From assembly GCA_937975525.1 (NCBI GenBank), contig CALJUJ010000119.1, positions 1-44,825 of the forward strand: 44,825 bases of DNA, in the 5' to 3' direction. Below, one piece after another: positions 12,092-36,926 of the stretch. This stretch comes from an uncultured bacterium. Lineage in GTDB: Bacteria; Desulfobacterota; Binatia; HRBIN30. The notes beneath the pieces were generated by a model. The model had not been told where the DNA came from and did no database searches. It worked only from the letters and a program-made list of their open reading frames with translations. The stretch's first letter is position 1. Each line of letters starts with the position of its first letter. Both the position numbers and the translations under genes were made by a program.

Positions 12092-12099
12092 TCCGGTTC

Positions 12100-19633: not shown

Positions 19634-20188
19634 ATGCCCGATTCCGCAGATCGTCAACGCCTCTCGATCCTGCTCGCCAGCCGTAGCCAGTTTCTGGCGT
19701 TCGTCGAGCGGCGGATCGGCTCTCGCGAGGAGGCAGAGGAGGTCCTGCAGGACGCGTTCGCGAGCAGCGTCGAGCACGTCGAAGGCGTGCGCGACGAGGA
19801 CAGCATCGTGGCCTGGTTCTACCGGGTGCTCCGGAATGCCATCGTGGATTGGCATCGCCGGCGGGCGCGGGAGCTCCCCGGCCTCGAGGGCGACTCCGAC
19901 CTCTTGCAGGCGCCTCCGGATACCGCCCTACAGCGTGACCTCTGCGTCTGCATCGAGGGGTTGCTGCCGCTCATCCATCCGGACTATGCAGAGCTGGTCC
20001 GCCTCGTAGACCTGGAGGGCCGGTCCGTCGGGGCGGTCGCCAAGGATCGCGGCGTCAGTGCGGGGAGTGCCCGCGTTCGCCTGCACCGCGCTCGGGCGGC
20101 CCTGCGCCGGGAGGTGCAGCTCACCTGTCGCACCTGCGCCGAACACGGCTGTCTCGACTGTACTTGCGCGAGGCCGTCTGGGGCCTGA
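19634..20188 (+). CDS. ECF sigma factor with C-terminal Cys-rich domain (CorE-like)
   Basis: Sigma2 region (VLQDAFASSVEH...WFYRVLRNAIVDWHRRR) and sigma4 region (YAELVRLVDLEGRSVGAVAKDRGVSAGSARVRLHRAR). Tail is QLTCRTCAEHGCLDCTC, plus CVC in the linker. No anti-sigma gene is adjacent. Confidence 0.8.
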   Translation: MPDSADRQRLSILLASRSQFLAFVERRIGSREEAEEVLQDAFASSVEHVEGVRDEDSIVAWFYRVLRNAIVDWHRRRARELPGLEGDSDLLQAPPDTALQRDLCVCIEGLLPLIHPDYAELVRLVDLEGRSVGAVAKDRGVSAGSARVRLHRARAALRREVQLTCRTCAEHGCLDCTCARPSGA

Positions 20189-20247
20189 CGGGGCGTCGTC
20201 TGGCGCGGTAGGTGTAACGTCCGCCCGGTCCGCTCGTCAGCGTAGGC

Positions 20248-22533
<2,286 letters not shown>

Positions 22534-22570
22534 TTCTGTGAGCCGGCGGCGACCGAGCGGGTAGTGCCGC

Positions 22571-24346
22571 TCAGTTCGCCGTCAAGGCCTGGAACGTCGT
22601 CAGGACGAGGTCGCCCGAAGGTGCGTCGATGCCGACGCCCTGGATGCCGACCCGCGTGCCCACGATCGCGGGGTTGTTGGGCAGTGCGTAGGGGAACGTG
22701 GCCTCACCGGACGGTGACGTAAGGGCAGCGCCGAGCGGCGAAGCGGTTGCAGGATCAAGGACCAGCAGACCGAGATTCGGGATCTGGCTCCACTGCTGCA
22801 GCTCGGCTGGCCCGGCGAACAGCGCGACGACTTGTCCCTGGGTCCATTGCACGCGGATCACGTCACTGGCGCCCGGAGTGAACGCGCTCGCGAAGCTGCT
22901 GATCGTGACGACCGGGATGTCGGCCGTGGGTTCCATGTCGCTACGCGTCTCGATGCCGTCGCCATCGTCGTCGCCGAGATAGTCGAAGATGGTCATCATG
23001 CCGGCCCCCATGTGGTCGGCGTTGTGGCAGTGGAACAACCAACGTCCGGGGTTGTCCATCGTGATCTGGCTCGTGAAGGAGCTGCCCGGTTGGCCCGCCG
23101 GCCGGATCAGGATCGTGTCCTTGATCGGGGGCGCGGTGGTCCCGCCTGCCGTGCCCATCAGTCGGAAGAAGTGACCGTGGATGTGCATCGGGTGATAGAA
23201 CGGCATCATCATCATTCCGCCGTTGCTGATCGTCAGCTGCACGTTCTCACCGGTCGACGTCAGGAAGGGGGTGACGTTCGGCCAGGCCTGACCATTGATC
23301 AGATGTGCCATGCCGCCAGGTCCCATACCCATCCCGAGCGAGGCCGTGTAGGAGCGGTCGGGCGTCGATGTGATCGGTTGCACCGGGTGGAAGGAGGCGA
23401 GCTGGCTGTAGCTGAGGAGCGAGCCTCCCGACAGGTTGGCGGGCACGTAGTTGGCCGCCGGGATCGGCGCTCCCTGCCCCGTGTAGCGGATCACGCCGCG
23501 GACCAAGGTGCTGGTGCGGTTCGCGATGTCCGAGACCGCGAAGCTCCAGGTGCCGGGGTTGTTGCAGTCGACGATCACGTCCCATCGTTCGCCGATGCCG
23601 ATCGGGATCGCCTGCGTGACGACGGGCTGCACGCGGTTGCCGTCGGCGTGCGTGACCGTCATCGGGTGGCCGTCGAGCGCGAACACGTAGTTGGTCGTCG
23701 AGGCGACGTTGACGACCCGGATCCGCAGCTTCTGTCCCGGCTGGACGTCGAACGGGACCTGTCCGAGGCTACTCCGTCCGTTGAGCAGGTGTCCAGAGAA
23801 GGCTCCCCCGAGAGGGTTGCTCCAGTCGTCCAGGATGATCGTGTGCTCTACATCGAAGGTGGGGTCGCTGGCCGCGTTGGCCGGATCGACGATGAGCATG
23901 CCGGCGGGGCCCTTGGAGAGCTGGGTCTCGTTGCCGTGCGGGTGGTACCAGTACGTGCCGGGAACCAGGTCGTTCAGCTCGTAGATGAACTCCTGGCCGG
24001 GGGCGACCGCCGGGCGTGAGATCGACGGGACGCCGTCCATGCCGAGCGGCACGGGTTGGCCGTGCCAGTGCACGGCCGTGGCCTCCGGGAGTTCGTTGCG
24101 GAACCTGACGCGGAGCGTCTGCCCCTCCGTGATCCGTAGCGTCGGGCCAGGCAACGAGCCGTTGTAGAGCCAGGCGTTGACGCTGGTGCCGGGTGCGACC
24201 TGCGCGGTGCCAGGAGTTGCGGTCAGGTTGACTTCGACGACCTGAGCACGGACCGCAGTGGAGCAGAGCAGGGCAAGCGCTGATGCGGTGGCGAGCCGCA
24301 GGTTCCTGACGGGAGCAGCGAAGCCGGCATGTTGGCGGGATTTCAT
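22571..24346 (-). CDS. Secreted multicopper oxidase with a ~135-aa non-oxidase C-terminal extension
   Basis: Start at MKSRQHAGF (ATG 24346-24344). Copper sites are VHWHGQ, WYHPHG, HPMHIHGH and FHCHNADHMGAGM. The extension begins after DYLGDDDGDG. Confidence 0.85.
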   Translation of the reverse strand: MKSRQHAGFAAPVRNLRLATASALALLCSTAVRAQVVEVNLTATPGTAQVAPGTSVNAWLYNGSLPGPTLRITEGQTLRVRFRNELPEATAVHWHGQPVPLGMDGVPSISRPAVAPGQEFIYELNDLVPGTYWYHPHGNETQLSKGPAGMLIVDPANAASDPTFDVEHTIILDDWSNPLGGAFSGHLLNGRSSLGQVPFDVQPGQKLRIRVVNVASTTNYVFALDGHPMTVTHADGNRVQPVVTQAIPIGIGERWDVIVDCNNPGTWSFAVSDIANRTSTLVRGVIRYTGQGAPIPAANYVPANLSGGSLLSYSQLASFHPVQPITSTPDRSYTASLGMGMGPGGMAHLINGQAWPNVTPFLTSTGENVQLTISNGGMMMMPFYHPMHIHGHFFRLMGTAGGTTAPPIKDTILIRPAGQPGSSFTSQITMDNPGRWLFHCHNADHMGAGMMTIFDYLGDDDGDGIETRSDMEPTADIPVVTISSFASAFTPGASDVIRVQWTQGQVVALFAGPAELQQWSQIPNLGLLVLDPATASPLGAALTSPSGEATFPYALPNNPAIVGTRVGIQGVGIDAPSGDLVLTTFQALTAN

Positions 24347-24384
24347 GGGAAGTGCTTTGGGAAGATGGCTGCGAGACGGGGGGA

Positions 24385-24693
24385 TCACTGTTCCGACTGC
24401 ATGTGTTTTCTGATGCAGTCGAGGACTCCGAGGATGCTCGGGTGCGAGACGCGGTATGGGCGCGTTCGGCCTGCCGCGATGGGCGACAGGATGCCGAGTT
24501 GGCGAAGACCCTGAAGGTGCTGGCTGATCTGCGAGAGCGGCAGCCCGATCGCCTCGGCCAACTCGCTTGGGGTCGCTTGTCCGTCGCGAATGAGGTCGAG
24601 GATCTGCAGGCGGACCGGGTGCGCCACGGTGCGAAGAATCGGTGCGACCGATTCCAGGACGTCCGGTGGGATCAGCGGCGGGGAGGCGCTCAT
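24385..24693 (-). CDS. ArsR/SmtB-family metalloregulator
   Basis: 102 aa with HPVRLQILDLI...TPSELAEAIGLPLSQISQHLQGLRQLGIL (winged HTH). Ends 38 nt upstream of the MCO gene. Confidence 0.85.
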   Translation of the reverse strand: MSASPPLIPPDVLESVAPILRTVAHPVRLQILDLIRDGQATPSELAEAIGLPLSQISQHLQGLRQLGILSPIAAGRTRPYRVSHPSILGVLDCIRKHMQSEQ

Positions 24694-24732
24694 GACTCGA
24701 ACGATAGTGGCGGGAGGGAGAGAGGTCACAGG

Positions 24733-24765
24733 TTCTAGAAGGTGAGAACTCAGGAACTCTAGAAG
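24733..24765. promoter_or_regulatory. Candidate ArsR operator: TTCTAGAA palindrome plus a second TCTAGAAG copy
   Basis: GGTTCTAGAAGGTGAGAACTCAGGAACTCTAGAAGCC lies 40-70 nt upstream of the arsR-like ATG and is locally AT-rich in a GC-rich genome. Confidence 0.4.
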
Positions 24766-24955
24766 CCTCGAACACGGAGGGCCGCCACCCAGGCGGGCTG
24801 ACGTCGCTGAATTGCCGTCTTTGACCGGGCGTGTCGAAATGCAGTTTCTGCAAGCGTCCGGAACACGTCTCAGTTCGCGAGGAGGATCCGTAACGCAATG
24901 TTGCGAAGATGCTTGCGACGACTGGCGGGGTCGTGCCAGAGAGTCTTGCTGGGTT

Positions 24956-24971
24956 TGGCGCGCTCGTTGCA
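24956..24971 (+). promoter_or_regulatory. sigma54-like promoter TGGCGC-GCTCG-TTGCA for the lipoprotein/OMF/MCO operon
   Basis: One mismatch to TGGCAC-N5-TTGCA. Lies 32 nt upstream of the ATG at 25003. Confidence 0.45.
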
Positions 24972-25002
24972 CATCCGCAGCGACCGAACGCCGAGTTCCC
25001 CG

Positions 25003-25287
25003 ATGACCATGCACGAACCTCGATCGCCATCGCGCCCCTTCTCTCGTCCTCTGACAGCTCTGCTCCTCGCGTCCGCGAGTGCAGGCTCATGCGCGAGCAC
25101 CTTCGATCTCGATCTGCCGCCGGATCATCCGGCGTGCGTGACTGCGCCGAGCGGCGGGGCCTTGAACGTGCCGGATCCCGCAGCGGTCCCGGAGCAAGTC
25201 GAGGCCGTGAGCCCGGCGAACGAGATGCAAGGCATGGGCAGTGATGAAGACGCCATGCATCCGGGCCACGCGAAGGAGCAGCGGTGA
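25003..25287 (+). CDS. Small lipoprotein with a Met/His-containing C-terminus
   Basis: Start at MTMHEPRS..., with lipobox SAGSCAS. Ends NEMQGMGSDEDAMHPGHAKEQR. Its stop overlaps the OMF start (GTGATG). Confidence 0.45.
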   Translation: MTMHEPRSPSRPFSRPLTALLLASASAGSCASTFDLDLPPDHPACVTAPSGGALNVPDPAAVPEQVEAVSPANEMQGMGSDEDAMHPGHAKEQR

Positions 25288-26744
25288 TGGCGCGCAGTCG
25301 ATCGTTGCACCGACCTCGGGCACTCCGATCCCGTCTTGCTTACTGCGGTTCGCTCGCACTGCTGGCCGGTGCGTGTGCCGTGCCTCAGCGTGAGCGGGTG
25401 CTCGCCGACGTGCAGGACGCCGTGCACGAACGACTCGGTGCCGACGTGGACATCGAGGCGCGGCCACTCCGTCCGGAGGGGATCCGCGAGTTGCTCCAGG
25501 ACGAGCAGATGGACGCCGACGAAGCCGTCCGCCTCGCGATCGCCAACAACCCGATGCTGCATGCGGAACTCGCCGAGCTCGAGATCGCTCGCGCCCAGAT
25601 CTGGCAGGCATCGCTCGCGCCGAACCCTGTGATCGACGCGCAGCTTCGCTTCGCCGAGGCCGGCGGTGGCGACATCCTCGAACTCGGGGTCGCGCAGAGC
25701 ATCGTCGATGTCCTGCTGATCCCGCGGCGCCGCCAGGTCGCGGCCGAACGTCTGGCCCAGGTCGAAGCGCGGGTCACCGGCGCAGTGCTCGACCTTGCGA
25801 CCGAGGTGCGAGCCAACTACCGGGCGCTGCAAGCGGATCAACAGCTCGTCGAGCTCTTCGAGGCCGCGACCGATGCTGCGCGATTGACCCTCGATGCGAC
25901 GCGACGTCTCCGAGAGGCCGGCAACGTCATCGAGCTCGAGCTGCTACAGGAGCAGGCGGTGTTCGAGGATGCGCGGTTGGCGCTGACCGAAGCCCGGAAG
26001 AACGTCCGCCGACATCGTGAGAACCTGAACGTGCTGTTCGGGCTGTCGGGCCCCGAGGGGGAGAGCTGGCAGGTCGAAGGCCGGATGCCCGAACCGGCGC
26101 CGCTCTCGATCGAGCCCGCCGAGCTCGAGCGGCGGGTGGTCACCGGAAGCCTCGATCTCGAAGCAGGTCGGCGTGAACTGACGATGCTGGGCCATCGCCT
26201 CGGGCTCGAGCAGCTGAGCGCCGCGTTTCCGACGGGGGGCGTCGGCGTCAACGGCGAGCGCGAGGCCTCGGAGAGCTGGATCGTGGGAGGCAACGTGTCC
26301 CTTTCGCTGCCGGTCTTCGACTTCGGGCAGGCGGTCTCGGCACACGTGCGAGCTGAGATCGAGCAGGCGTTCCATCGGCTGACCGACCTCGCGATCCGCA
26401 TCCGGCGTTCGGCGCGCGACAGCCTCGTGGCCTCGGAGGTCAGCGGCAACAACGCTCGTCACCTGTTCGACGTCGTCGTGCCGCTCCGCACGCGGATCAC
26501 GCAGCAGACGCAGGAGCAGTTCAACGCGATGCAGATCGGCGTCTTCCGGGTCGTCGACGCCAAACGAGCCGAGCTCGACGCGGCCCGGCGCTACATCGAA
26601 GAGCTCAAGATGCACTGGATCGCGCGCAGCCAGCTCGAGTCGCTCCTGCTGGGGCGCCTGCCCGCGACGCGCTTCGGAATCACCGGGCCCGGACTCGGTT
26701 CGGTGTCCGCCATTGCGGGGGCCGGCGGCAACGGCGGCCACTAG
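25284..26744 (+). CDS. TolC/OprM-family outer-membrane efflux lipoprotein
   Basis: Lipobox LLAGACA and a two-repeat OMF helical pattern. Start is GTG 25284 or ATG 25287. Confidence 0.85.
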   Translation: MMARSRSLHRPRALRSRLAYCGSLALLAGACAVPQRERVLADVQDAVHERLGADVDIEARPLRPEGIRELLQDEQMDADEAVRLAIANNPMLHAELAELEIARAQIWQASLAPNPVIDAQLRFAEAGGGDILELGVAQSIVDVLLIPRRRQVAAERLAQVEARVTGAVLDLATEVRANYRALQADQQLVELFEAATDAARLTLDATRRLREAGNVIELELLQEQAVFEDARLALTEARKNVRRHRENLNVLFGLSGPEGESWQVEGRMPEPAPLSIEPAELERRVVTGSLDLEAGRRELTMLGHRLGLEQLSAAFPTGGVGVNGEREASESWIVGGNVSLSLPVFDFGQAVSAHVRAEIEQAFHRLTDLAIRIRRSARDSLVASEVSGNNARHLFDVVVPLRTRITQQTQEQFNAMQIGVFRVVDAKRAELDAARRYIEELKMHWIARSQLESLLLGRLPATRFGITGPGLGSVSAIAGAGGNGGH

Positions 26745-26787
26745 TCCCGCGCGACTGCCTTTCCTCATCCCACCGAACACACCCGAC

Positions 26788-28104
26788 ATGAATACTCGAC
26801 GCAACTTCCTGTTCTCCGGCGCCGCCGCAGGTGCGGCGGCCGCCTTGACCACCGCCGAACGGGCGAGCGCACGTAGCATCCGGCGCGATCTGGATCGCGC
26901 GAGCGTCGGTGGCGCGCAGCCGCGCGACCATCGGCCCGTCATCGTTCCCAGCGGCAGCAAGGCGCCGATGCGGGACGTCGACGGGGCCAAGGTCTACCAC
27001 CTCGTCGTCGAGGAGTTCGACCACACGTTCGCTCCGGGGCTCGTCGCGCGGTGCTGGGGCTTCAACAGGATGGTGAACGGTCACGTGATCGAGGCGGTCG
27101 AGGGGGACCGGGTTCGCATCTACGTCACCAACAGACTGCCCGCCCCGACGTCGACGCACTGGCACGGCCTGATCCTGCCCAACGGCATGGACGGTGTCAG
27201 CGGTCTGACGCAGCCGCCGATCCCGCCGGGGGAGACCTGGCTCTACGAGTTCGACCTGCGCCAGAACGGGACGCACATGTTCCACAGCCATCACGACACC
27301 ATGACGCAGGAGGGCCTCGGCCTCACGGGCATGTTCGTGATCCACCCGGCAGACGCCGGCGAGCCGATGGTGGACCGCGACTTCGCGCTGATGCTGCATG
27401 AGTGGCGGATCGACGCCGGGGCACGTCGGCCGAACCCCAACGAGATGAGCGACTTCAACGTGCTCACGATGAACGGCAAGGTCTTCCCGTTCCTCGATCC
27501 ACTGGTCGTGCGCAAGGGCCAGCGCGTCCGCATGCGGATCGGCAACCTGTCGGCGATGGACCATCACCCGATCCACCTCCATGGCTACGAGTTCCACGAG
27601 ACCGCGGTTGACGGCTGCAGGATTCCCGCGGAGCAGCAGCGCCGCCGCGTGACGACCCTCGTCGGCGTCGGTGAGACGCGTGACATCGAGTTCGACGCAG
27701 TCAACGTGGGCGACTGGGCCTTCCACTGCCACATGACCCACCACGTCATGAACCAGATGGGCCACGCATTCCCCAACATGATCGGCTTCGATGCGAAGGG
27801 CTTCGACAGTCGCGCGCGTTCGCTGCTGCCGGGCTACATGACGATGGGCGCGAAGGGCATGGGGGACATGACCGACATGGGCATGCCGTTGCCCGAGAAC
27901 AGCGTGCCGATGATCAAGGCCGAGGGCGGCTTCGGCAAGGACGTCAGCCTCGGTGGCATGGCCGGCGTCCTGAAGGTCCGGGAAGGGTTGTCCGACGAGG
28001 CGCTCGAGGCGAATCGAGATCCGGGTTGGTACGAGCATCCCAAGGGCACGGTCGCCGGCCCCGCGTCGGCGGAGGATCGTCGGCGAGATGGCATCGTCGA
28101 GTAG
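26788..28104 (+). CDS. Tat-exported multicopper oxidase with a Met-rich C-terminal region
   Basis: Twin-arginine signal MNTRRNFLFSGAAAGAAAAL. Copper sites are THWHGL, FHSHHD, HPIHLHGY and FHCHMTHHVMNQM. Met-rich stretch is GYMTMGAKGMGDMTDMGMP. Confidence 0.85.
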   Translation: MNTRRNFLFSGAAAGAAAALTTAERASARSIRRDLDRASVGGAQPRDHRPVIVPSGSKAPMRDVDGAKVYHLVVEEFDHTFAPGLVARCWGFNRMVNGHVIEAVEGDRVRIYVTNRLPAPTSTHWHGLILPNGMDGVSGLTQPPIPPGETWLYEFDLRQNGTHMFHSHHDTMTQEGLGLTGMFVIHPADAGEPMVDRDFALMLHEWRIDAGARRPNPNEMSDFNVLTMNGKVFPFLDPLVVRKGQRVRMRIGNLSAMDHHPIHLHGYEFHETAVDGCRIPAEQQRRRVTTLVGVGETRDIEFDAVNVGDWAFHCHMTHHVMNQMGHAFPNMIGFDAKGFDSRARSLLPGYMTMGAKGMGDMTDMGMPLPENSVPMIKAEGGFGKDVSLGGMAGVLKVREGLSDEALEANRDPGWYEHPKGTVAGPASAEDRRRDGIVE

Positions 28105-28180
28105 CTGCCTCGACATGTGAACGCCCGGAGAGGGTGGCGGGTTCTTCCCGGGGGAGCAAGCTCGGGCTAGAGTCGCGCCG

Positions 28181-28483
28181 ATGAACCGAACCCCCATACT
28201 TGTTGCGGCGATGGCCGCATTCACCCTCGCCGCCTGTCACTCCGCGCCCGCAGAACCTCAGCTTGCCAGCACGCAAGTGCACCTCGTGTTGGACAAGACC
28301 CCTACTTGAGGCGGGTGTGCTGCCACCGTGCGTGGCGTCGTCACCAAGCTGCCCGGCGTTTCCGGCGTGGAGGTCGAGCCCGGTTCCGCAGACATCGTGG
28401 TCAGCCTCGACCCGAACGCGACGAGCGTGGAGCAGTTGCTGGCCGGCATGAGTGCCGGTGGGCAGCCCGCGAAGCGCAAGTAG
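28181..28483 (+). CDS. HMA-domain lipoprotein interrupted by an in-frame TGA (28307-28309) at the first Cys of CxxC: selenocysteine candidate or pseudogene
   Basis: MNRTPILVAAMAAFTLAAC (lipobox) ...VHLVLDKTPT-TGA-GGCAATVRGVVTKLPGVSGVEVEPGSADIVVSLDPNATSVEQLLAGM. The frame stays open to TAG 28481-28483. A GCCAC-CGTGC-GTGGC hairpin lies at 28322-28336. Confidence 0.55.
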
Positions 28484-28738
28484 CATCACGTTTCCGCAGG
28501 CGCGCGAGCGGCCGCGTCTCCTCGCTCCGCCGGGAACCGCTTGATTCCATACGGGAGGCCGTCGCGCCGCTGGCGCTTCGAGTTGCACTAGGTGATGGCA
28601 GGCTAGGTGTGCAGCGATGTCCGTGGCAGACAGCGCGCGAAATGCGTCACAGCTCATGCGGCTGCGATTGAGTTGCTCGCTGGAAGTGGGCCGGCGGTCT
28701 CGTGCCTCTGCTCCGGTGGCGCTTCTTGCACAGCGAGG

Positions 28739-29185
28739 CTACGTCATGAATGTCGGGTTGCCAGCGTCGGTGGAGAACACGCGCATGGTCTCCACCGGCA
28801 AGTAGGTGAAGCTCTGTGGTGCCGTGACCCCATCATGGATCTCGTGGAGCGTCAGTGGTTCTGCGAGCGAAGTGGCCTTCTTCACGAGAATGGCAACAGC
28901 CGTACGGCTTCCCGCGTAGTATTCGCGGAACAACCGACGTGGAATCGCGCCATGGCCGCCATGTCTCTTCCATACAGCGGTCGGTGTGTCTTCATCGAGG
29001 TCTTGCACCTGGAAGTACCCCACGACCCTCTGGGTCGGGGCAGTGGCGTAGAGCAGCACGAACTGAATCTCCGGAGCGAGCTTCCGCTTCCTGAACTCGA
29101 CACTCTTGCGACCCTCTAGGATCGCAGTCGCGTGTTCTGGGTGAATGGCTAGAAGTGCTACGCGCTGAACTGATCGATCAGCCAT
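28739..29185 (-). CDS. Stand-alone ASCH (PUA-like) domain protein
   Basis: 148 aa. RVALLAIHPEHATAILEGRKSVEFRKRK...VVGYFQV...APQSFTYL follows the ASCH pattern. AGGAGG lies upstream of ATG 29185. Overlaps the upstream gene by 28 nt. Confidence 0.75.
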   Translation of the reverse strand: MADRSVQRVALLAIHPEHATAILEGRKSVEFRKRKLAPEIQFVLLYATAPTQRVVGYFQVQDLDEDTPTAVWKRHGGHGAIPRRLFREYYAGSRTAVAILVKKATSLAEPLTLHEIHDGVTAPQSFTYLPVETMRVFSTDAGNPTFMT

Positions 29186-30609
29186 TGGGTTCCCTCCCCT
29201 CCTACGCACATGATCGACTGCGGAGCCCGGGCGAAGACGCGGGCGTTCATGAGTTCTTCCGGAGTCTTGCATGGGGCGACAACTCTCACTTGGCGGAAGC
29301 GGATGGCAAGAACTTCTCGTGCCTCGCACAGGTCCTGGATCTCTTGGGCAGAGTAGACCGTTCTTCGCGCCACTGCTCGAACGACGACGGCTGGGTCTCG
29401 GGTGACGGTCGTGTCCTCGACGACTCCGATCGCGATCAGGCCTTGACGCCGTTGTGTGCGGTAGAATGCCAGAACGCTTCCCGGAACGAGTTGTCGTGAC
29501 GGGGCGTGGCACAGGTACGCCTTGCGGATCGCGTTGCCGAACGACAGTTGGCCCTCGAACAAGTTGCGCGTTGCGCAGGTCTCGGGGAAGAGTGCGTCGG
29601 AGAAGCGCGGTTGAATAGGTACCAGATGCCAGTCTTGCTGCGCATCGAAGCGAGGCGGACCATACTTGATGTGGTAGTCCAGTCCGGAAATGCCAGCTTG
29701 GGGTTCCAGAAGTTTCGTTAGAATGAGCTCGCCGACGTCGGTTGTCTCCGCGTGCGGCGAAAACCCGAAGTCGTCGAGGAGTTCGAGGAGGGTTTGGTGC
29801 TTCTCGAACACGGTCACGAACATTCCTGTGGCCCGCTTGCCGTGCGCGTGTTCGAAGACGGTCTTGAGGAGTAGCTCTCCGTACTTCAGGCCGTTGAATT
29901 GCTCGGCGACTTTGAAGCTGCAGATCTTCAGTGGGCGGTCACCTAGCGGCAGGCCTGGATGCACGTCGTTCTCTTTGACGATGCAGATGCCGGCCAAGCG
30001 GTCCCCGCCATCGATTGTCCACGTCTGGCGATGGTCGCGGCAGCACCTTGCAAACCAATCGTCGAACGTGGGGTAGTCGGCACGAAAGGAATCGAAGATG
30101 GGGTCGCGCTTGTCCAGGGCGTGCGGCTTGATGGATCTGACCGCGGGCGGTGCTGCGATGCTGGCGGGAGCACCGAGCAGTCGGACGGCTTCATCAATTG
30201 TCAGGACACGATGGTCGATCCCAAGGCGTCGGGCCTTCTTGCGGATCCCTCTGTCCTCGGAGATCAGGAAGTCGATGGCGTCAGCATCGAGTGCAACGAT
30301 CAGGTTGTTGTCGACCCAGTCGTTTGATCCACGCGCGGGGGAGCCGATGACAGACTCGTGAGCGGGAGTGATCGGCGGTGGATCTGGGAGTTCCGGGTAC
30401 TTGCCTGCGAGGACGCGCCGAAGTTCTGCTCGACTCGTGTCCTTGTCGCGGTCGATGTCGTGCGAGTGGGCTGGGTGGAGGTAGGTGGTGTGACCACCTT
30501 CCTGCGCTCGGCGATTGATGAGAGCTGCGGCCTCTGAGTTGGTCGCCACGTCAGCTGTGGACGCAGGCTCCAGTGGAATGAAGATGTTGGTGTCGAGGAG
30601 CAGCTTCAC
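29158..30609 (-). CDS. Triple-domain protein: N-terminal PIN nuclease, central GNAT acetyltransferase, C-terminal ASCH-like domain
   Basis: PIN: MKLLLDTNIFIPLEP...DNNLIVALDADAIDFLISEDRGI. GNAT: AGICIVKEN...LKICSFKVAEQFNGLKYGELLLKTVFEHA...LLDDFGFS. ASCH-like: HLVPIQPRFSDALFPE...GSVLAFYRT...LIAIGVVED...APQSIMCV. Confidence 0.75.
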   Translation of the reverse strand: MKLLLDTNIFIPLEPASTADVATNSEAAALINRRAQEGGHTTYLHPAHSHDIDRDKDTSRAELRRVLAGKYPELPDPPPITPAHESVIGSPARGSNDWVDNNLIVALDADAIDFLISEDRGIRKKARRLGIDHRVLTIDEAVRLLGAPASIAAPPAVRSIKPHALDKRDPIFDSFRADYPTFDDWFARCCRDHRQTWTIDGGDRLAGICIVKENDVHPGLPLGDRPLKICSFKVAEQFNGLKYGELLLKTVFEHAHGKRATGMFVTVFEKHQTLLELLDDFGFSPHAETTDVGELILTKLLEPQAGISGLDYHIKYGPPRFDAQQDWHLVPIQPRFSDALFPETCATRNLFEGQLSFGNAIRKAYLCHAPSRQLVPGSVLAFYRTQRRQGLIAIGVVEDTTVTRDPAVVVRAVARRTVYSAQEIQDLCEAREVLAIRFRQVRVVAPCKTPEELMNARVFARAPQSIMCVGGEGTQWLIDQFSA

Positions 30610-30649
30610 GAGGAGTGGGCTTCGGACCGAGCAAGGCGCGCGGCGGGCT

Positions 30650-31195
30650 TCATCTCGAACCGAACTCTACCCATGCGGCGTCGAGCACACCGTCGATGAT
30701 GTCTCCGCGGATTGGGTGGTTCGGGTGCGCCTCTAGCATCTTGGCAACTTCTCGGTGAGCCGTGGCCTGCGCCTTGACGACCTCGCAGCAGCGTGCATGA
30801 GAGGCCGCGAGCGTGCTGGCCATGGCATCGACGCCCACGGTGGGTTGTTGTTCGCGCCAGAGGCGTAGCGCCTCGAAGTGGTCTTGACACTTCACGCGGG
30901 GCGTTTGCCCCATCTCGAAGTCGAAGGCCATTCTGTCGAGTGCCTGCGCTCGTGGTGGCTCAAGTCGCGAGCCGAGGACCTCGCACTCGGCCGCGGGTCC
31001 GCCGAGGATCACGTCGAGTTGGACGTCGAATGGCTCATGGCGCAGTTCGCAGTGGCTTGCGCGGCCAGAGCCATCATCGCAAGCGATGGCCCGGCGGATG
31101 AAGAGTTGGTGATGCCGAAGGAGTAGAACGTGCCCAGCTTCGTGGACGGCAGCTCGTCGGAGCTCAGTTGCGTGAATGATAGGATCTTGCGTCAT
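30650..31195 (-). CDS. Stand-alone M41 (FtsH-type)-like zinc metallopeptidase domain protein
   Basis: Start at MTQDPIIH (AAGGGAG SD upstream). AAVHEAGHVLL (HExxH) followed by VILGGPAAECEVLG parallels HEAGHA...GGRAAEE of FtsH. No AAA+ module or TM segment. Confidence 0.6.
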   Translation of the reverse strand: MTQDPIIHATELRRAAVHEAGHVLLLRHHQLFIRRAIACDDGSGRASHCELRHEPFDVQLDVILGGPAAECEVLGSRLEPPRAQALDRMAFDFEMGQTPRVKCQDHFEALRLWREQQPTVGVDAMASTLAASHARCCEVVKAQATAHREVAKMLEAHPNHPIRGDIIDGVLDAAWVEFGSR

Positions 31196-31261
31196 GGCTC
31201 CCTTGGCGCGAAAGCGTCGTCGCTTTGCCAAGCCCGAGTAGGCATGGTACCCTCCCGCCAT

Positions 31262-31279
31262 GGAGCTCCAAGGAGCTCC
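31262..31279. promoter_or_regulatory. Tandem 8-bp palindromes GGAGCTCC-AA-GGAGCTCC, candidate operator of the peptidase/PIN-GNAT-ASCH/ASCH operon
   Basis: Two identical self-complementary octamers 10 bp apart, 67-84 nt upstream of ATG 31195. A long imperfect palindrome CTTGGCgcgAAAGCG-tcgt-CGCTTTGCCAAG at 31202-31233 abuts the SD. Confidence 0.35.
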
Positions 31280-32750
31280 TCGTCGTCAGAACTCGAAACA
31301 CAGTCTGACGTCGCCTCGAAGTGCCGCAGCATCGCCCGGCAAACCTGGCAGCCACCAGGCTAAGGGGGCAGGGTTCACCGCCTGCCGTGATGCCGGCTCG
31401 TAGCGCTGGATGCCCGGAGACGGGCTCGTCCAGTGCGAGAGAGGCTTGAGCGAGTAATCCGTTCGAATCCAGTTGGGCCAAGGTGTCCGCGCTCTCGGGA
31501 TCGGTTCCGAGGGGTGCGGTGCCCCTCTCCCAGACGCTTGTCGAACGTCAATCCGCTCATTCTATCTCATGGTGATCCCGCGCTTCGGAGGCGGGACGAC
31601 CGAGACACGCCACGCGGCGAAACTCCGTGTGGTCGTGGATGACGAAGTCGGTGAGGTAGCGAAGGCGCCGAACACCCCGCTTGCCCCGCACGATGATGAC
31701 TCGTGCGACTGCTCGTCCGCCGTGGCGGGTGCAACCGAGCAAGCGAGGAAGTGGCGTGCTGCCAAATCCACCTGCGGGGTCCGGGCCCGGTTGTCGTGTT
31801 CGACGCCGCGTCCGTTCAACGCAAGCCAGCGCCGGGAGCTCGATCGCCGCGAGGCGAATCGACCGGGCCCGACAAGCCCGGGGACCGAGGGAAAGCCCCT
31901 CGGCCGTGAAAAGTTCAACGGTGAAAGGCCCGCGAGGGCTTGCTGGTCAGAAGCATGGGAGACGGTGCCGAACTGCGAACGCACCTGTCCGGTCTGTAAG
32001 GCGGAGCTTCTGCATTCTGCCGCCTGAAATCCCGGAGGACCTGCTCTGGGGAGAGTGAAGCATCGGTCGGGAGACCAGGCTTCACGGGCTCGTGCCGCGG
32101 CGTGAAACGCCGCTAGCAACGTGACCCATGCTTCGACGTGATCCACTAATCGGGGAAGGACTCGAGCTGCCGGGGAGGTGCCCGGTGCCTGGCTGTCGAC
32201 CAGGTGATTCAAAGGCTCGAGTCTGGGAGCGAGCTGCAAGTAGAAGTCGGGCGGGAGCCCGAGCGGTGGCGAGACCGAAGGGTCTCGAAGGAGTCTTCGT
32301 GCGACTCCTTCCTGGCAAGGCAGTCAGGACCCGCGTTCGCGCACGCCGGTTGGCCCCGGCGAGCACACGCGACGACGAAAGCAGCGACGAGCGAACGAAA
32401 CGTCACTCGAGGTGACGGTTGCTTGGTAAGCACGACTTGTGGCTGCAGGGGGTAAGGAAGTGCTCCGGGAGGAGCCGCCCCCTGCGGCGACAGGATGACG
32501 ATGGACGCCGGAGGTTTATCCGGCGGCCGTCGCAAGGAGGTCTTGCGCAACCATCATGGATTGGACACGCCCTGCGGGCGTGCGATCTGGAATGTGGGTA
32601 TGCGCGCAACGAGGTTGCCAAGGAGGTGATCAGCATGGTTGGGGCGATGGCCGCTGGCCGGAAGGTTCAGCGGCTTGGAGCGTGCCCGTGAACGCTCCGC
32701 ACTTGTCCGTTCCGTGGAGCGGAGAGGTGCCAGGAAGTTGTAGGTGCAGT
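31280..32750. other. ~1.45 kb ORF-poor, hairpin-dense region (candidate large structured RNA, origin-like region or decayed genes)
   Basis: No ORF with protein-like sequence in any frame. Many short GC stems, several with GNRA-type or GAAA-containing loops: GCCC-GCGA-GGGC near 31928, GCGGCG-TGAAA-CGCCGC near 32097, GAGGG-AAAG-CCCCTC near 31887. Confidence 0.3.
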
Positions 32751-32751
32751 T

Positions 32752-33450
32752 GTGAACTACAGGTGTGAAGCCACGTCCGTGGCGGGGTTCGTCCAGCAGC
32801 TCGCGTGCTGCTACGTCCGCCACGGCTACCACCACTACGTCGTCGGCGAGATCCCGCCGCACAAGGACCCGCGCGCCGTGGATGCGCGGATGGTCGAGCG
32901 CTACGAGCTCGGTGTGTCGAAGTTCGTGCGTGCGCGGCGCAAGCGTGCGGGCCTACCCAACGTTCAGTACATCAGGTTTCGGCGCTTCTTCGTGCTCTGT
33001 GCGACCTCACCGCGCGAGGGGCACCGGTTCTACGAAGAGCATGCAGCCAGCCAGATCCGGAGCATCCACGAGCAGCCGATCGCCTTCGCTGGCTACTCGA
33101 TCGGCTGGCATCGGGGTGCTGATCGTCGCTGGCACGTCTCGGTGCGGATCCACCCCGAGCGCTACCGGTCGCTGAAGGCCTACCTGCTCGAGCTAGCGTG
33201 CCGGCGCTCTGTCAAGCAGATCGCCGGCGAGTTCACGCGACTGGGATTCGAGCCCTACGCGCCAGTGCGGCGGCAGTTCTTGTCGTTGCTCAAGGCCGTG
33301 AACAAGGAACGCAAGGTCGCAGGCATGGCGCAAGTGCCTGTGGAGTGTCTGCGCCTTCGGCGTGAGGTGGTTCGGCCGTTCGGCTTGGTCAGCCGCATTG
33401 CCTGCGACGACGAGGTCCACTGCGAGTCAGATGTCCGGAGGGCGGTGTGA
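32752..33450 (+). CDS. Hypothetical protein (232 aa), function not recognised
   Basis: Protein-like composition with high third-position GC. Translationally coupled (GTGA) to a small zinc-ribbon ORF. The start could be an internal GTG near 32779. Confidence 0.5.
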   Translation: MNYRCEATSVAGFVQQLACCYVRHGYHHYVVGEIPPHKDPRAVDARMVERYELGVSKFVRARRKRAGLPNVQYIRFRRFFVLCATSPREGHRFYEEHAASQIRSIHEQPIAFAGYSIGWHRGADRRWHVSVRIHPERYRSLKAYLLELACRRSVKQIAGEFTRLGFEPYAPVRRQFLSLLKAVNKERKVAGMAQVPVECLRLRREVVRPFGLVSRIACDDEVHCESDVRRAV

Positions 33451-33599
33451 AACCGATTCGAGTCTGTCACGACTGCGGCACGCCCTGGGCGCGACACGTT
33501 GCGCGGTGTCCGGGGTGTGGGCAGTGCCGAAACGGTGCTGAGCAGCTCGCCATGCTGGTTGTTCTTGTCGCGTGGCTCGTCGGAGTGTTTCGCTGGTAG
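33447..33599 (+). CDS. Small zinc-ribbon protein with a C-terminal TM helix (50 aa, absent from the ORF track)
   Basis: VKPIRVCHDCGTPWARHVARCPGCGQCRNGAEQLAMLVVLVAWLVGVFRW has CxxC-x12-CxxC then a hydrophobic tail. GTG 33447 overlaps the upstream TGA. Confidence 0.4.
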   Translation: MKPIRVCHDCGTPWARHVARCPGCGQCRNGAEQLAMLVVLVAWLVGVFRW

Positions 33600-33788
33600 T
33601 GCGGCGCAAGTCTGAGATTCTTGGCTCTCACCTACTCTCTCCGGCTCGCGCGTGATTGAGTCCACCCTGGGTCGGGTCCAGGCAAGAGCCTGACGTGTGC
33701 TCCCATCGATACGCAGATCGACCGACGAGCTGGTGCACCGGTTGGTGGGGGCAGTGTTCGTCAACCCGCCACCAGTCCGGCTACGTAC

Positions 33789-33811
33789 AAGACGCACTCT
33801 CAGTGCGTCTT
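33789..33811. terminator. Bidirectional hairpin between convergent genes
   Basis: AAGACGCAC-TCTCA-GTGCGTCTT is a perfect 9-bp stem, located between the ends of 33447-33599 (+) and 33816-34538 (-). No U-tract. Confidence 0.45.
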
Positions 33812-33815
33812 CACG

Positions 33816-34538
33816 TCAGGCGCGAGTTGTCTCTCGAGACGGCATCTCGTCCCAGACCCTGCCGTCGAGCAGGCGCCCGGTCTTCTTCTTGTTCGTGCCT
33901 CCCCACTGCTTGAAGAAGAACGGGACACCATCCGCTGCGCAGGCGTCCCGGAGGTGTCGAACCCACTCGGGGGCAATCAGCCGTGCGCCAGGTCCGGACT
34001 CTCCACCGACGATGACCCAGCCGATGCCGGTCAGGTCGATCTCGGTCAGCGGGCCCAGCAACGGCTCGAGCGAGAGGAAGCGGACGTTGGCGGGGACGGT
34101 TCGCAGGTCGTCGATCCGGTCGAGGTAGTCGGCGCTCTCGACACTCACACCCATCCAGACGTTCTCAGGCCAGGGCAGCTGTGGGGCGACTTCTCGAAGT
34201 CGATCCGCGCGCTTCGTCAAGATCTGGAAGGTGTGCTGAGGCGCTTGCTCCATCGTCCGGAACACGCGTTGGATGAACGGTGTCGGCACGTCCTTGTGGA
34301 ACAGGTCGCTCATCGAGTTGACGAACACGAGTCGGGGTTTCCGCCAGCGAAGCGGGATGTCGAGCATGTGCTCCTGGAGCGTGAGCTGGAATCCCCTGGC
34401 GTAGTTGGCTTGTCCCATCGCCTGTAGGCGTTTGGCCATGCGCTCCGCGTAGCAGTGTTTGCAGCCTGGGCTGGTCTTCGTGCAGCCCGTCACCGGGTTC
34501 CACGTGGCGTTTGTCCACTCGATTGTTGATCGACTCAT
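33816..34538 (-). CDS. DUF5131 (phage Gp37/Gp68 family) three-Cys-motif protein
   Basis: [38 protein letters not shown] is the hallmark N-terminus. AGGAGG lies 5 nt upstream of ATG 34538. Confidence 0.85.
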
Positions 34539-34655
34539 CGGCACCTCCTAGTTGTTGTGATGTGGCCTGTCCGGCGGTCGGCGCGCGCCGATGACTGCGT
34601 GGACGCTCACACTCTTGTGCAACGAAGCCAGCAGGTGAGTGAGAGACGCGAGGCC

Positions 34656-34832
34656 CTAGTCCGGGAGAAGTCGAAGCGTCGAGCTCACGCCTTCTGCGAC
34701 GGCGCCTTGGACATCGCGTTGGCGCGTGAGGGAATCGAAAGACGCGATCAGCCGTAGGAGGTCGCACGCGAAGTCGCGGGCGCCAACTACTTGGCCGGGA
34801 TCGCGATCTCGAGAACTGGGTGGTGGGATCAT
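34656..34832 (-). CDS. Possible small protein (58 aa) between the ClpX-like and DUF5131 genes
   Basis: ATG preceded by AGGTGA at 8 nt. Helical-looking FACDLLRLIASFDSLTRQRDVQGAVAEGV. No recognisable family. Confidence 0.25.
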   Translation of the reverse strand: MIPPPSSRDRDPGQVVGARDFACDLLRLIASFDSLTRQRDVQGAVAEGVSSTLRLLPD

Positions 34833-34999
34833 GCTCGGCGTCACCTGCTGTGGTCTGGGTTGCTGGGTGCTTCCAAACCACCGTAGGTCGCGGATTCCGT
34901 AGGACCATCCCACCCGGCGGCCCTCTCGTTTCCGTATACGTGCACACGTCGCGAAGCCGCTGCCGCGGATCGCGTTCGGTTGCGGCCGTCCGTCGATGT

Positions 35000-36493: not shown

Positions 36494-36521
36494 GCGGGCA
36501 TGGAAGGTCGTCACGCGATCG

Positions 36522-36926
36522 ATGCCCAACCCGAGTCACTTCGTTCGGCAGGTCGCGGAGGGGCGCGACGCGGACCTCGAGCAGATCGAAGAAGACTGTC
36601 TCAGCGGCGAGGTAGGGGCCTCAACCGCAACCTTGCTCGCGAGGTTCTACGACGCGTACGAGCGGGACATCGAGGAACTCGAGACCTTCATCACGTGCCA
36701 ACGTCTGGTGGGTGGACTCATCTCCGCAACGCTGAAGGATGCTCACCGGCGCATTCGTGCGGTCGAAGCGTCGGAGCGGGCGCGAAGGATCAAGCGCAGG
36801 GAAAGCGAGAATCGCGGTCCCTACTCGGTCAGCAACCGGACTCCCGTTCAGTCGCTCGCGGAACGACGAAAGCTGCTGGGAATCGCGATCCAGCAGTCCG
36901 TGCCCAAGACGAAGAGGGGTTGGTAA
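36522..36926 (+). CDS. Hypothetical protein upstream of xis/int
   Basis: Open frame with helical, charged sequence (ARFYDAYERDIEELETF...). Same strand as xis and contiguous with it. Start uncertain (36396-36522). Confidence 0.4.
   Translation: MPNPSHFVRQVAEGRDADLEQIEEDCLSGEVGASTATLLARFYDAYERDIEELETFITCQRLVGGLISATLKDAHRRIRAVEASERARRIKRRESENRGPYSVSNRTPVQSLAERRKLLGIAIQQSVPKTKRGW

What the first reader, a model, noticed from the sequence alone, without database searches (positions are those of the whole stretch)
28181..28483. In-frame TGA exactly at the first cysteine of the CxxC metal site of an HMA lipoprotein: selenocysteine candidate
From ATG 28181 the frame encodes a lipoprotein signal (LAAC), then VHLVLDKTPT, then TGA (28307-28309). 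It then continues in frame as GGCAATVRGVVTKLPGVSGVEVEPGSADIVVSLDPNATSVEQLLAGM up to TAG 28481. Aligned to the HMA consensus (GMxCxxC...V...L..GV..V.V), the TGA occupies the first Cys, giving U-G-G-C.

Twelve nt after the TGA a hairpin GCCAC-CGUGC-GUGGC (28322-28336) can be extended by an outer GGUG/CACC stem. This puts its apical loop 18 nt from the UGA, within the range reported for bacterial SECIS elements.

The alternative is a TGC-to-TGA nonsense mutation, that is, a recent pseudogene. A 5-bp stem in GC-rich DNA is weak evidence on its own.
Basis: partly seen in the sequence, partly recalled or inferred. Interest (0 to 1): 0.7.

Follow-up and report, generated by a model that had tools for sequence, protein, structure and literature searches.

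The report
Selenocysteine copper-binding lipoprotein gene, misannotated
The "stop" codon inside this small metal-binding lipoprotein gene very probably encodes selenocysteine, marking an apparently undescribed selenoprotein family that travels with mobile copper-resistance islands and that databases record only as truncated fragments.

Summary
The pseudogene alternative is rejected.

- **The gene.** ATG 28181 to TAG 28483 encodes a lipoprotein signal (LAAC), then an HMA domain. TGA 28307-28309 sits on the first Cys of the CxxC metal site.
- **TGA conservation.** 52 copies in 41 fetched loci carry TGA at the same place (31 to 35 distinct sequences; contig GC 57-75%). None has TAA or TAG. One full-length Cys homologue exists.
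- **Translation past the TGA.** Close pairs give dN/dS of 0.07-0.24 downstream. Against near-identical island copies, all 7 downstream differences are synonymous.
- **The hairpin.** GCCAC-CGUGC-GUGGC, 12 nt after the UGA, has no synonymous variation, while flanking conserved codons vary freely. A tandem paralogue subfamily supplies compensatory changes (G-C to A-U, C-G to U-A).
- **Genetic code.** TGA is the normal stop of 15/24 window genes.
- **Known families.** No NCBIfam (seleno)protein model reaches its cutoff. The papers found do not list the family. Databases hold only fragments of about 50 aa.
- **Setting.** The gene lies in a 37-kb integrative copper-resistance island inserted at tRNA-Gly.
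- **Untested.** Whether the host has selA/B/C/D: none is in the window or the fetched flanks.

It is a new member of a known kind, the HMA-fold selenoproteins.

The parts
28181..28483 (+). Complete selenoprotein gene: 100 codons including Sec43, then TAG. It encodes an HMA-fold lipoprotein with a U-G-G-C metal site.
   Evidence: sequence and frame. (Pfam HMA, 37.2 bits). (aligned to solved HMA domains). (13 synonymous against 2 non-synonymous differences from near-identical copies).
28181..28237 (+). Signal peptide with lipobox L-A-A-C. Cys19 (28235-28237) is the predicted lipidation site.
   Evidence: Read directly from the sequence. A signal peptide ending in a small-residue + Cys box is present in most family members that hold the N-terminus. 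No dedicated lipoprotein predictor was run.
28307..28309 (+). In-frame UGA, read as selenocysteine (Sec43). It occupies the first metal ligand of UxxC.
   Evidence: TGA at the homologous codon in all 52 copies in 41 loci. It aligns to Cys in P0012 and in solved HMA domains.
28316..28318 (+). TGT, Cys46: the second metal ligand of the U-G-G-C motif.
   Evidence: Invariant Cys in all copies, encoded by either TGT or TGC.
28321..28337 (+). SECIS core hairpin. The stem is 28321-28326 paired with 28332-28337 (6 bp, including the closing U-G pair). The loop is CGUGC at 28327-28331. It starts 12 nt after the UGA and is encoded by the A-T-V-R-G codons.
   Evidence: 15 nt invariant in 32 of 34 main-family copies. 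Codon entropy is 0 at these codons against 1.5-1.9 bits at flanking conserved codons. 98.3% of cells are paired, 3 of 6 pairs show compensatory double changes, and 0/500 shuffles reach the covariation score.
26713..28104 (+). Upstream neighbour: a multicopper oxidase with a weak TAT-signal match (below Pfam cutoff), probably a periplasmic partner. The ORF just before it is an outer-membrane efflux protein (25284-26744).
   Evidence: Pfam Cu-oxidase_3 and Cu-oxidase_2; TAT_signal 21.3 bits against a cutoff of 22.7; OEP. The same gene order is seen in near-identical islands L121-L125.
1644..38650 (.). Integrative element of about 37 kb that carries the gene. It is bounded by 48-bp direct repeats (1644-1691 and 38603-38650) at tRNA-Gly(CCC), with the integrase at 37153-38655. 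Cargo includes CusCBA, three multicopper oxidases, a P-type ATPase, a TRASH/YHS lipoprotein, an ECF sigma factor and a sigma-54 two-component system.
   Evidence: annotation. (repeat, and GC of 0.64-0.68 inside against 0.70-0.75 outside).

Best explanation
The gene at 28181-28483 is an intact selenoprotein gene.

**Translation (inferred mechanism).** UGA at codon 43 is decoded as selenocysteine. A short SECIS hairpin (6-bp stem, CGUGC loop) begins 12 nt downstream and lies inside the codons for A-T-V-R-G. It would recruit SelB carrying Sec-tRNA(Sec) to the ribosome paused at the UGA.

**Product (part shown, part inferred).** The product has a lipoprotein-type signal peptide. It would be exported, cleaved and lipidated at Cys19, leaving a membrane-anchored periplasmic HMA (ferredoxin-like) domain of about 80 residues. 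Its metal-binding loop is U-G-G-C instead of C-x-x-C.

**Function (inferred from context).** It most likely binds Cu(I), or possibly Ag(I), between a selenolate and a thiolate. It would act as a periplasmic metallochaperone or buffer for the neighbouring multicopper oxidases and the CusCBA/OEP efflux system.

**What is shown.** The conserved TGA, translation past it, nucleotide-level constraint and covariation of the hairpin, HMA homology, and the copper-resistance context.

**What is inferred.** SelB dependence, actual selenium incorporation, lipidation, metal specificity and the partner proteins.
For: 1. **TGA conservation.** 34 copies in the first 31 loci and 52 copies in 41 loci with the relaxed motif all carry TGA, never TAA or TAG. 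Contig GC ranges from 0.57 to 0.75 and protein identity falls to about 33-40%.

2. **Independent protein-level signal.** An exhaustive HMMER search of 1.84 billion proteins returned 9 clusters (at 50% identity) of truncated ORFs of about 50 aa among its top 14 hits. Seven start at the residue matching GTG 28328 and two start nearby. One full-length Cys-form lipoprotein was also found, P0012 with FCDSC.

3. **Translation beyond the TGA.** dN/dS is 0.07-0.24 for close pairs. In the window's own lineage, L121 and L124 differ at 15 of 303 nt. All 7 differences after the TGA are synonymous third-position changes. Overall the split is 13 synonymous to 2 non-synonymous.

4. **SECIS.**
- The codons GCC ACC GTG CGT GGC are fixed in 31/31, 31/31, 31/31, 29/31 and 31/31 distinct sequences.
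- The adjacent Gly codon uses all four synonyms.
- Codon entropy is 0 at the hairpin codons against 1.5-1.9 bits at flanking conserved codons.
- CGT is only 10% of Arg codons in the window.
- The Cys-form hit L112 encodes the same ATVRG with GCG ACG GTG CGC GGC, which breaks the stem.
- Paralogue copies carry ACCAC..GUGGU and ACCAU..AUGGU, which are compensatory.
- Across 30 sequences, 98.3% of cells are paired, 3 of 6 pairs show double changes, and 0/500 shuffles reach the covariation score.

5. **TGA is a normal stop here.** It ends 15/24 window genes and many family genes themselves.

6. **HMA homology spans the TGA**.

7. **Copper context recurs.** The window, islands L121-L125 and the marine loci with MCO, a TRASH/YHS lipoprotein, then the Sec-HMA gene next to CusCBA.
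Against: - No selA, selB, selD or tRNA-Sec was found in the window or in about 1.2 Mb of fetched flanks. The host's ability to insert Sec is therefore untested.
- The gene rides on a mobile island, which could have landed in a host without Sec machinery.
- The hairpin alone is no more stable than shuffled sequence.
- An alternative register is equally well paired, at 98.1% of cells.
- The compensatory changes come from one paralogue clade and may reflect few evolutionary events.
- One of the two scan patterns required GC[VA]ATVRG, which biases recovery toward SECIS-bearing members.
- Metal specificity and lipidation rest on context and motif only.
- No Rfam family matches the hairpin.
Confidence: 0.88

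Rival explanations
1. Recent pseudogene: a TGC-to-TGA nonsense mutation inactivated an ordinary CxxC HMA lipoprotein.
For: A single in-frame stop at a Cys codon is one mutation away from TGC. The hairpin alone is not significant. Databases annotate only a 51-aa fragment.
Against: The TGA is at the same codon in 52 copies in 41 loci, across GC 0.57-0.75 and down to about 35% identity. dN/dS downstream is 0.07-0.24. In the window's own lineage, all 7 downstream differences are synonymous. No frameshifts or extra stops were found.
Confidence: 0.01
2. The family is a genuine selenoprotein family, but this host lacks Sec machinery. The island was acquired horizontally, so here the gene yields only a 42-residue truncated lipopeptide and is silent cargo.
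For: The gene lies in a 37-kb integrative element with lower GC than its flanks. No Sec genes are in the window. Sec decoding is patchy among bacteria, which is established knowledge (PMC1794560).
Against: Near-identical island copies from several samples keep the gene, the TGA and the hairpin intact, with only synonymous change downstream. The nearest taxon by the adjacent MCO is Planctomycetota, and several members of that phylum have full Sec sets (PMC4807772). That taxon assignment rests on island genes and is weak.
Confidence: 0.08
3. UGA read-through without selenium. The conserved hairpin would stimulate near-cognate decoding (Trp, Cys or Arg) or act as a translational attenuator. Alternatively the organism reads TGA as a sense codon.
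For: Structures downstream of stop codons can promote read-through. Sec machinery has not been demonstrated here.
Against: TGA terminates 15/24 window genes and many family genes, so the code is standard. The codon sits exactly on a metal-ligand Cys. A Cys-form homologue exists. By my recollection, the hairpin geometry (12-nt spacer, GU in the loop) matches the minimal E. coli fdhF SECIS. HMA-fold selenoproteins with U at this motif are already curated (NF041115 and NF045683).
Confidence: 0.03

Closest known systems
[quoted passage not shown]
   Same: A small HMA-like metal-binding protein with selenocysteine in the CxxC-type metal site. It is detectably homologous (E = 1.3e-6).
   Different: The score is 28.5 bits against a cutoff of 95, so this gene is not a member. 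That family has two Sec residues (UxxU), whereas this one has U-G-G-C. This family also has a lipoprotein signal and sits in copper-resistance islands.
Cation-transporting P-type ATPase selenoprotein (UxxC; TIGR01525; PMC13188914, PMC2398784)
   Same: Sec replaces the first Cys of a UxxC motif in a heavy-metal transport protein. I infer that the motif lies in the N-terminal HMA domain.
   Different: That is a large cytoplasmic-membrane pump, with Sec in an appended cytoplasmic domain. This is a stand-alone, exported lipoprotein of 100 aa. The P-type ATPase in this window (20248-22533) has no in-frame TGA.
NCBIfam NF045683 'MerT/CopZ fusion-like heavy metal transport selenoprotein'
   Same: A heavy-metal transport selenoprotein. 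This protein aligns weakly to positions 149-226 of the 235-position model, which by the family name is the CopZ-like part.
   Different: The score is 16.6 bits against a cutoff of 375. There is no MerT membrane domain here and the architecture differs.
MerP (TIGR02052) and CopZ (NF033795): Cys-containing HMA metallochaperones
   Same: The same fold and the same metal-site position. MerP is also periplasmic. MerP is the best NCBIfam hit, at 34.3 bits.
   Different: All scores are below cutoff (34.3 against 92.55, and 27.6 against 91). MerP and CopZ use Cys-Cys. No mer genes are present. CopZ is cytoplasmic and has no signal peptide. The 'MerP' selenoprotein in the GOS data set (…GTUCQSGV…) is unrelated in sequence.
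E. coli fdhF-type bacterial SECIS (compared from memory, not tested with a tool)
   Same: A hairpin inside the coding sequence immediately 3' of the UGA. The spacer to the minimal upper stem is about 11-12 nt, and a G-U is exposed in the apical loop about 22-24 nt from the U of UGA.
   Different: Here the conserved part is only a 6-bp stem with a 5-nt CGUGM loop. There is no conserved bulged U and no conserved lower stem. It is almost invariant across a diverse protein family.

Membership tests
Bacterial selenoprotein gene (UGA-Sec with bacterial SECIS) | The in-frame UGA aligns with Cys in homologues (a Sec/Cys pair). | tested here: met
   P0012 has FCDSC at the aligned position. Alignments to ATP7B metal-binding domains place a Cys there, and MerP and the Menkes domain match over the same region. 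L112 has TGC.
Bacterial selenoprotein gene (UGA-Sec with bacterial SECIS) | The UGA is conserved among orthologues, and the coding sequence downstream is under purifying selection. | tested here: met
   52 copies in 41 loci all carry TGA. dN/dS is 0.07-0.24. All 7 downstream differences from near-identical copies are synonymous.
Bacterial selenoprotein gene (UGA-Sec with bacterial SECIS) | A stem-loop shortly 3' of the UGA with G in the apical loop, conserved as a structure. | tested here: met
   A 6-bp stem with a CGUGM loop, 12 nt after the UGA. 98.3% of cells are paired, 3 of 6 pairs show compensatory changes, and 0/500 shuffles reach the score. There is no synonymous variation in the stem codons. 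Caveat: an alternative register is also well paired.
Bacterial selenoprotein gene (UGA-Sec with bacterial SECIS) | The host encodes selA, selB, selD and tRNA-Sec. | not testable with these tools
   None was found in the window or in about 1.2 Mb of flanks. The rest of the host genome is not available here.
Bacterial selenoprotein gene (UGA-Sec with bacterial SECIS) | Selenium is incorporated at the UGA position. | not testable with these tools
   This needs 75Se labelling or mass spectrometry.
HMA domain (Pfam PF00403) | Score above the Pfam gathering threshold, with the metal motif in the loop between strand 1 and helix 1. | tested here: met
   37.2 bits against 24.8 with U read as C. The tandem paralogue scores 36.0 bits. 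The AF2 model of the Cys homologue shows strand-helix-strand-strand-helix topology with the Cys at the end of that loop, but at low confidence (pLDDT 55).
NF041115 UxxU metal-binding (seleno)protein | Score at or above 95 bits, and a UxxU motif. | tested here: not met
   26.5-29.2 bits for four family members. The motif is UxxC in all copies.
NF045683 MerT/CopZ fusion selenoprotein | Score at or above 375 bits, and a MerT membrane domain. | tested here: not met
   16.1-27.3 bits. The protein has 100 aa and no MerT part.
MerP (TIGR02052) | Score at or above 92.55 bits, and a mer operon context. | tested here: not met
   29.4-34.3 bits. The neighbours are copper-resistance genes, and the Pfam scans showed no mer genes.
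Bacterial lipoprotein (signal peptidase II substrate) | An N-terminal hydrophobic region followed by a lipobox [LVI][ASTVI][GAS]C. | tested here: inconclusive
   FTLAAC at residues 14-19. Similar boxes (LAGC, FAGC, SAC, GAAC, VGC) occur in most family members. This was judged by inspection only, with no predictor or experiment.

The most novel reading that the evidence does not exclude
The family may be a selenium-dependent periplasmic Cu(I) chaperone that spreads between bacteria on integrative copper-resistance islands. Its 15-17-nt SECIS core is almost invariant across sequences that are otherwise only about 35% identical. That would suit a compact, 'portable' SECIS that works with the SelB of whichever host receives the island. 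If so, copper tolerance would depend on selenium supply, and the element would be a minimal SECIS cassette (encoding A-T-V-R-G) of practical use for making recombinant selenoproteins.
Probability: 0.3. Interest if true: 0.7.

Novelty: new member of a known kind. Interest (0 to 1): 0.6.

Why it matters
- **Annotation.** It adds an apparently undescribed selenoprotein family. Public collections hold these proteins only as fragments of about 50 aa, one of them named 'copper chaperone CopZ'. A family model that reads TGA as U would correct many records.
- **Biology.** It places selenocysteine directly in a Cu(I)-type metal site of an exported, probably lipid-anchored protein within copper-resistance islands. 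It therefore suggests a link between selenium availability and copper or silver tolerance.
- **Mobility.** A selenoprotein gene carried on an integrative element works only where the host supplies Sec machinery. That makes it a natural test case for the horizontal spread of selenoproteins.
- **RNA.** The very short, nearly invariant SECIS embedded in five codons is a clean example of dual protein and RNA coding. It could serve as a compact SECIS for engineering.

Tried and rejected
- **Word-index homology search.** A search with the read-through protein found nothing. Members are too short or truncated in that index.
- **Orthologues next to MCO homologues.** I looked in 80 reference genomes and found none. 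This used the only genome-contig scan, so family members could not be tied to named genomes.
- **Rejected inputs.** Only the 57 aa after the TGA could be used. An 11-sequence alignment was too diverse for locus scanning and was replaced by a 3-sequence one.
- **Hairpin energy.** It is not significant when taken alone.
- **The window's extended lower stem.** It is not conserved.
- **RNAalifold's register-shifted structure.** It is well paired, but it explains fewer compensatory changes and is broken by L082a.
- **Rfam.** No family reaches its gathering score at the locus.
- **Neighbouring TRASH/YHS lipoproteins.** I checked them for in-frame TGA because a YHS selenoprotein family is known. They use Cys.
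- **The GOS 'MerP' selenoprotein.** It is unrelated in sequence.
- **Sec machinery.** tblastn with E. coli SelA, SelB and SelD, plus ARAGORN, over the window and all flanks gave no hits.
- **Window source record.** Exact look-ups of two other window proteins failed.
- **Structure.** The AF2 model of the Cys homologue was too low in confidence (pLDDT 55) to justify a fold search.

Full report
**1. Observation**

- ATG 28181 opens a frame encoding MNRTPILVAAMAAFTLAAC..., which is a signal peptide with lipobox LAAC.
- After ...VHLVLDKTPT comes TGA at 28307-28309.
- The same frame continues GGCAATVRGVVTKLPGVSGVEVEPGSADIVVSLDPNATSVEQLLAGMSAGGQPAKRK and ends at TAG 28481-28483.
- Third-position GC is coding-like on both sides of the TGA: 0.69 before it and 0.86 after it.
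- With the TGA read as Cys, the protein matches Pfam HMA above threshold, at 37.2 bits against 24.8.
- phmmer alignments to ATP7B metal-binding domains put the TGA codon on the first Cys of GMTCxxC. MerP and the Menkes domain match over the same region.
- The hairpin GCCAC-CGUGC-GUGGC lies at 28322-28336, 12 nt after the TGA.

Taken alone, the hairpin is not better than chance in this 67% GC sequence. Its z-score is -0.9 on a short stretch and +1.1 on a longer one.

**2. What the comparison shows**

*Protein-level search.* An exhaustive HMMER search used the 57 residues after the TGA against 1.84 billion representative proteins.
- Nine of the top 14 hits were proteins of about 50 aa (one runs to 84 aa) from different 50%-identity clusters.
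- Seven of the nine begin at the residue that corresponds to GTG 28328. One starts at the second Cys and one three residues later.
- One hit was a full-length lipoprotein homologue with FCDSC (P0012).
- This pattern is what gene callers produce when an upstream in-frame stop is conserved.

*DNA of the orthologues.* Two of these hits carry TGA at the same codon and an identical 15-nt hairpin. A metagenome scan then used peptide patterns that force neither TGA nor any codon choice. It returned 31 loci.
- Together with the two orthologues and the window, these gave 34 copies with TGA at the first-Cys codon and none with TAA or TAG.
- Contig GC ranged from 0.57 to 0.75, and identity fell to about 33-40%.
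- With a relaxed motif, and after further look-ups, the count is 52 copies in 41 loci.
- Only canonical cytoplasmic-type HMA hits (L112, L113) had TGC.

**3. Translation continues past the TGA**

- For closely related pairs (dS 0.1-0.55), dN/dS of the region after the TGA is 0.07-0.24.
- The window's own 51-residue C-terminal product occurs unchanged on 13 contigs from several samples, including two NCBI assemblies.
- Two of these contigs (L121, L124) differ from the window gene at 15 of 303 nt. All 7 differences after the TGA are synonymous third-position changes.
- Overall the split is 13 synonymous to 2 non-synonymous. The TGA and the hairpin are untouched.
- This rules out a recent pseudogene, both for the family and for this lineage.

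**4. The hairpin is under RNA-level selection**

- In 31 distinct sequences, the five codons GCC ACC GTG CGT GGC are fixed in 31/31, 31/31, 31/31, 29/31 and 31/31.
- The neighbouring Gly codon uses GGC, GGT, GGA and GGG in 11, 10, 5 and 5 sequences.
- Codon entropy is 0 bits at codons +5 to +8. At flanking, equally conserved G, A, L and V positions it is 1.5-1.9 bits.
- CGT makes up only 10% of Arg codons in the window.
- The Cys-form hit L112 encodes the same A-T-V-R-G with GCG ACG GTG CGC GGC, which destroys the stem.
- The more distant Cys homologue P0012 has a different peptide there, TSNVH.

A tandem paralogue subfamily was found just upstream in several loci (L082, L083, L087, L090 and L096, with the same gene pair also in L116-L120). 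It supplies real covariation.
- Four copies have ACCAC-CGUG[C/A]-GUGGU. Here the first stem pair has changed from G-C to A-U.
- L082a has ACCAU-CGUGC-AUGGU. Here the fifth pair has also changed from C-G to U-A, at the price of two amino-acid changes (T to I and R to H).

On 30 sequences, the 6-bp stem is paired in 98.3% of cells. Three of its 6 pairs show double changes, and 0 of 500 shuffles reach the covariation score. RNAalifold's register-shifted alternative is equally well paired (98.1%). It accounts for only one compensatory change, and L082a breaks it. The window's outer GGUG/CACC extension is not conserved.

From memory, and not tested here: the geometry resembles the minimal E. coli fdhF SECIS, with a 12-nt spacer and G-U in the loop about 22-23 nt from the U of UGA.

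**5. It is not a recoded genome**

TGA ends 15 of 24 genes in the window. It also ends many of the family genes themselves.

**6. Context**

The gene is the last of a block made of an ECF sigma factor, a P-type ATPase, a multicopper oxidase, an OEP and a second multicopper oxidase with a weak TAT-signal match (below the Pfam cutoff). Further left lie CusCBA, a sigma-54 two-component system, a third multicopper oxidase and a TRASH/YHS lipoprotein.
- In a marine subgroup, the order is an MCO (77% identical to the window's MCO1), then a YHS/TRASH lipoprotein, then the Sec-HMA gene, next to CusCBA.
- Other members stand as tandem pairs without copper genes nearby.
- Some are fused to C-terminal domains.
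- In the window, the whole cluster lies in a 37-kb integrative element. It is bounded by 48-bp direct repeats (1644-1691 and 38603-38650) at tRNA-Gly(CCC), with an integrase at 37153-38655 and lower GC than the flanks.
- Near-identical islands elsewhere have different downstream junctions, including a transposase.

**7. Mechanism proposed**

*Shown:* a conserved Sec codon in the metal-binding loop of an HMA domain, preceded by a lipoprotein-type signal, with a conserved SECIS, in copper-resistance neighbourhoods.

*Inferred:*
- SelB with Sec-tRNA(Sec) decodes UGA43.
- The protein is exported, lipidated at Cys19 and faces the periplasm.
- U43 and C46 bind Cu(I), or possibly Ag(I), in a two-coordinate selenolate-thiolate site.
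- The protein buffers Cu(I) or passes it to the adjacent multicopper oxidase or the Cus/OEP efflux system.
- A chemical rationale, which is inference only: the selenol has a low pKa and high affinity for soft metals, and a Se-S bond is easier to reduce than a disulfide in an oxidising compartment.
- A MerP-like role in mercury handling is less likely, because no mer genes are present and the MerP model scores far below its cutoff.

**8. What remains open**

No selA, selB, selD or tRNA-Sec lies in the window or in about 1.2 Mb of fetched flanks. The host genome could not be reached. The nearest named relative of the adjacent oxidase is a Planctomycetota MAG at 74% identity. Several Planctomycetes have full Sec gene sets (PMC4807772). 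Island genes are a weak guide to the host, however. Because the gene is on a mobile element, I give about 8% to the possibility that this particular host cannot decode it.

**9. Comparison with what is known**

HMA-fold and metal-transport selenoproteins are a known kind.
- NCBIfam holds NF041115 (UxxU metal-binding selenoprotein) and NF045683 (MerT/CopZ fusion selenoprotein).
- Reviews list a UxxC cation-transporting ATPase (PMC13188914, PMC2398784).
- This family scores 28.5 bits against a cutoff of 95, and 16.6 bits against 375, so it is not a member of either NCBIfam family.
- Term searches of the 2026 review found no such family. Full-text literature searches found no such family either.
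- The 'MerP' selenoprotein of the GOS study is an unrelated sequence.
- Public collections hold the family only as fragments of about 50 aa. One is named CopZ and none is marked as a selenoprotein.

**10. Verdict**

This is a real Sec-encoding gene (confidence about 0.88). It is a new member of a known kind.

It is of moderate to good interest for four reasons:
- a metal-ligand Sec in an exported lipoprotein;
- carriage on a mobile copper-resistance island;
- an unusually short and nearly invariant SECIS;
- systematic misannotation in public databases.

Noticed in passing
window 1644-1691 and 38603-38650; integrase 37153-38655; tRNA-Gly(CCC) 38606-38680 (-): A 48-bp exact direct repeat that covers the 3' part of tRNA-Gly brackets a segment of about 37 kb. 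The segment has lower GC (0.64-0.68 against 0.70-0.75 outside) and a phage-type integrase at its right end. It is an integrative element carrying the whole metal-resistance cluster.
   Followed up: partly
L082:130-159, L083:1213-1242, L087:5753-5782, L090:5753-5782, L096:5741-5770, L116:9546-9869 (also L117-L120): A second lipoprotein HMA subfamily lies in tandem, immediately upstream of the main copy. It also has an in-frame TGA (motifs U-G-S-C, U-K-Q-C, U-G-Q-C, U-E-G-C, U-A-G-C) and compensatory hairpin variants (ACCAC..GUGGU, ACCAU..AUGGU). The window has only one copy.
   Followed up: partly
L098:1702-, L107:545- ; L099:932-, L101:5997-, L110:634-: Some family members continue past the HMA domain into C-terminal fusions. 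L098 and L107 carry an intradiol-dioxygenase-like domain (Pfam Dioxygenase_C, E = 4e-18). L099, L101 and L110 carry a domain of about 320 aa with no Pfam match.
   Followed up: partly
window 22534-24925 (multicopper oxidase on the minus strand, 22571-25090): This segment is missing from the otherwise 95-99% identical islands L121 and L122, which hold other small ORFs there. The 839-aa oxidase therefore looks like a later insertion or replacement within the island.
   Followed up: no
window 18701-19408 (-); L081:220-474, L084:~770-1030, L086:~5550-5810, L091:~5545-5805: A TRASH/YHS-type protein with FCC..C motifs (two repeats in the window copy) sits directly upstream of the Sec-HMA gene in the marine loci, where it has an N-terminal lipobox. 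It uses Cys, not Sec, although a YHS-domain selenoprotein family is described in the literature.
   Followed up: yes
window 28328-28483 and homologues P0001-P0046: Public gene calls split the gene into an N-terminal stub of 38-70 aa and a fragment of about 50 aa that starts at an internal GTG or ATG. One such fragment is named 'copper chaperone CopZ' by IMG. This is a systematic annotation error for the family.
   Followed up: yes
window 7136-9628 (-): The CusB-like membrane-fusion protein is unusually long, at 830 aa. It carries two heavy-metal-binding HMBD motifs and DUF3347 repeats in addition to the HlyD_D23 core.
   Followed up: no
L062, L063, L065, L048, L049 (about 1-1.5 kb downstream of the MCO homologue): In several Gammaproteobacteria loci, the oxidase is followed by proteins with a 'HKTP[TSW]CGCC' motif. 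It superficially resembles the DKTPT-U-GGC stretch here. They are probably an unrelated copper-binding family and were not examined.
   Followed up: no
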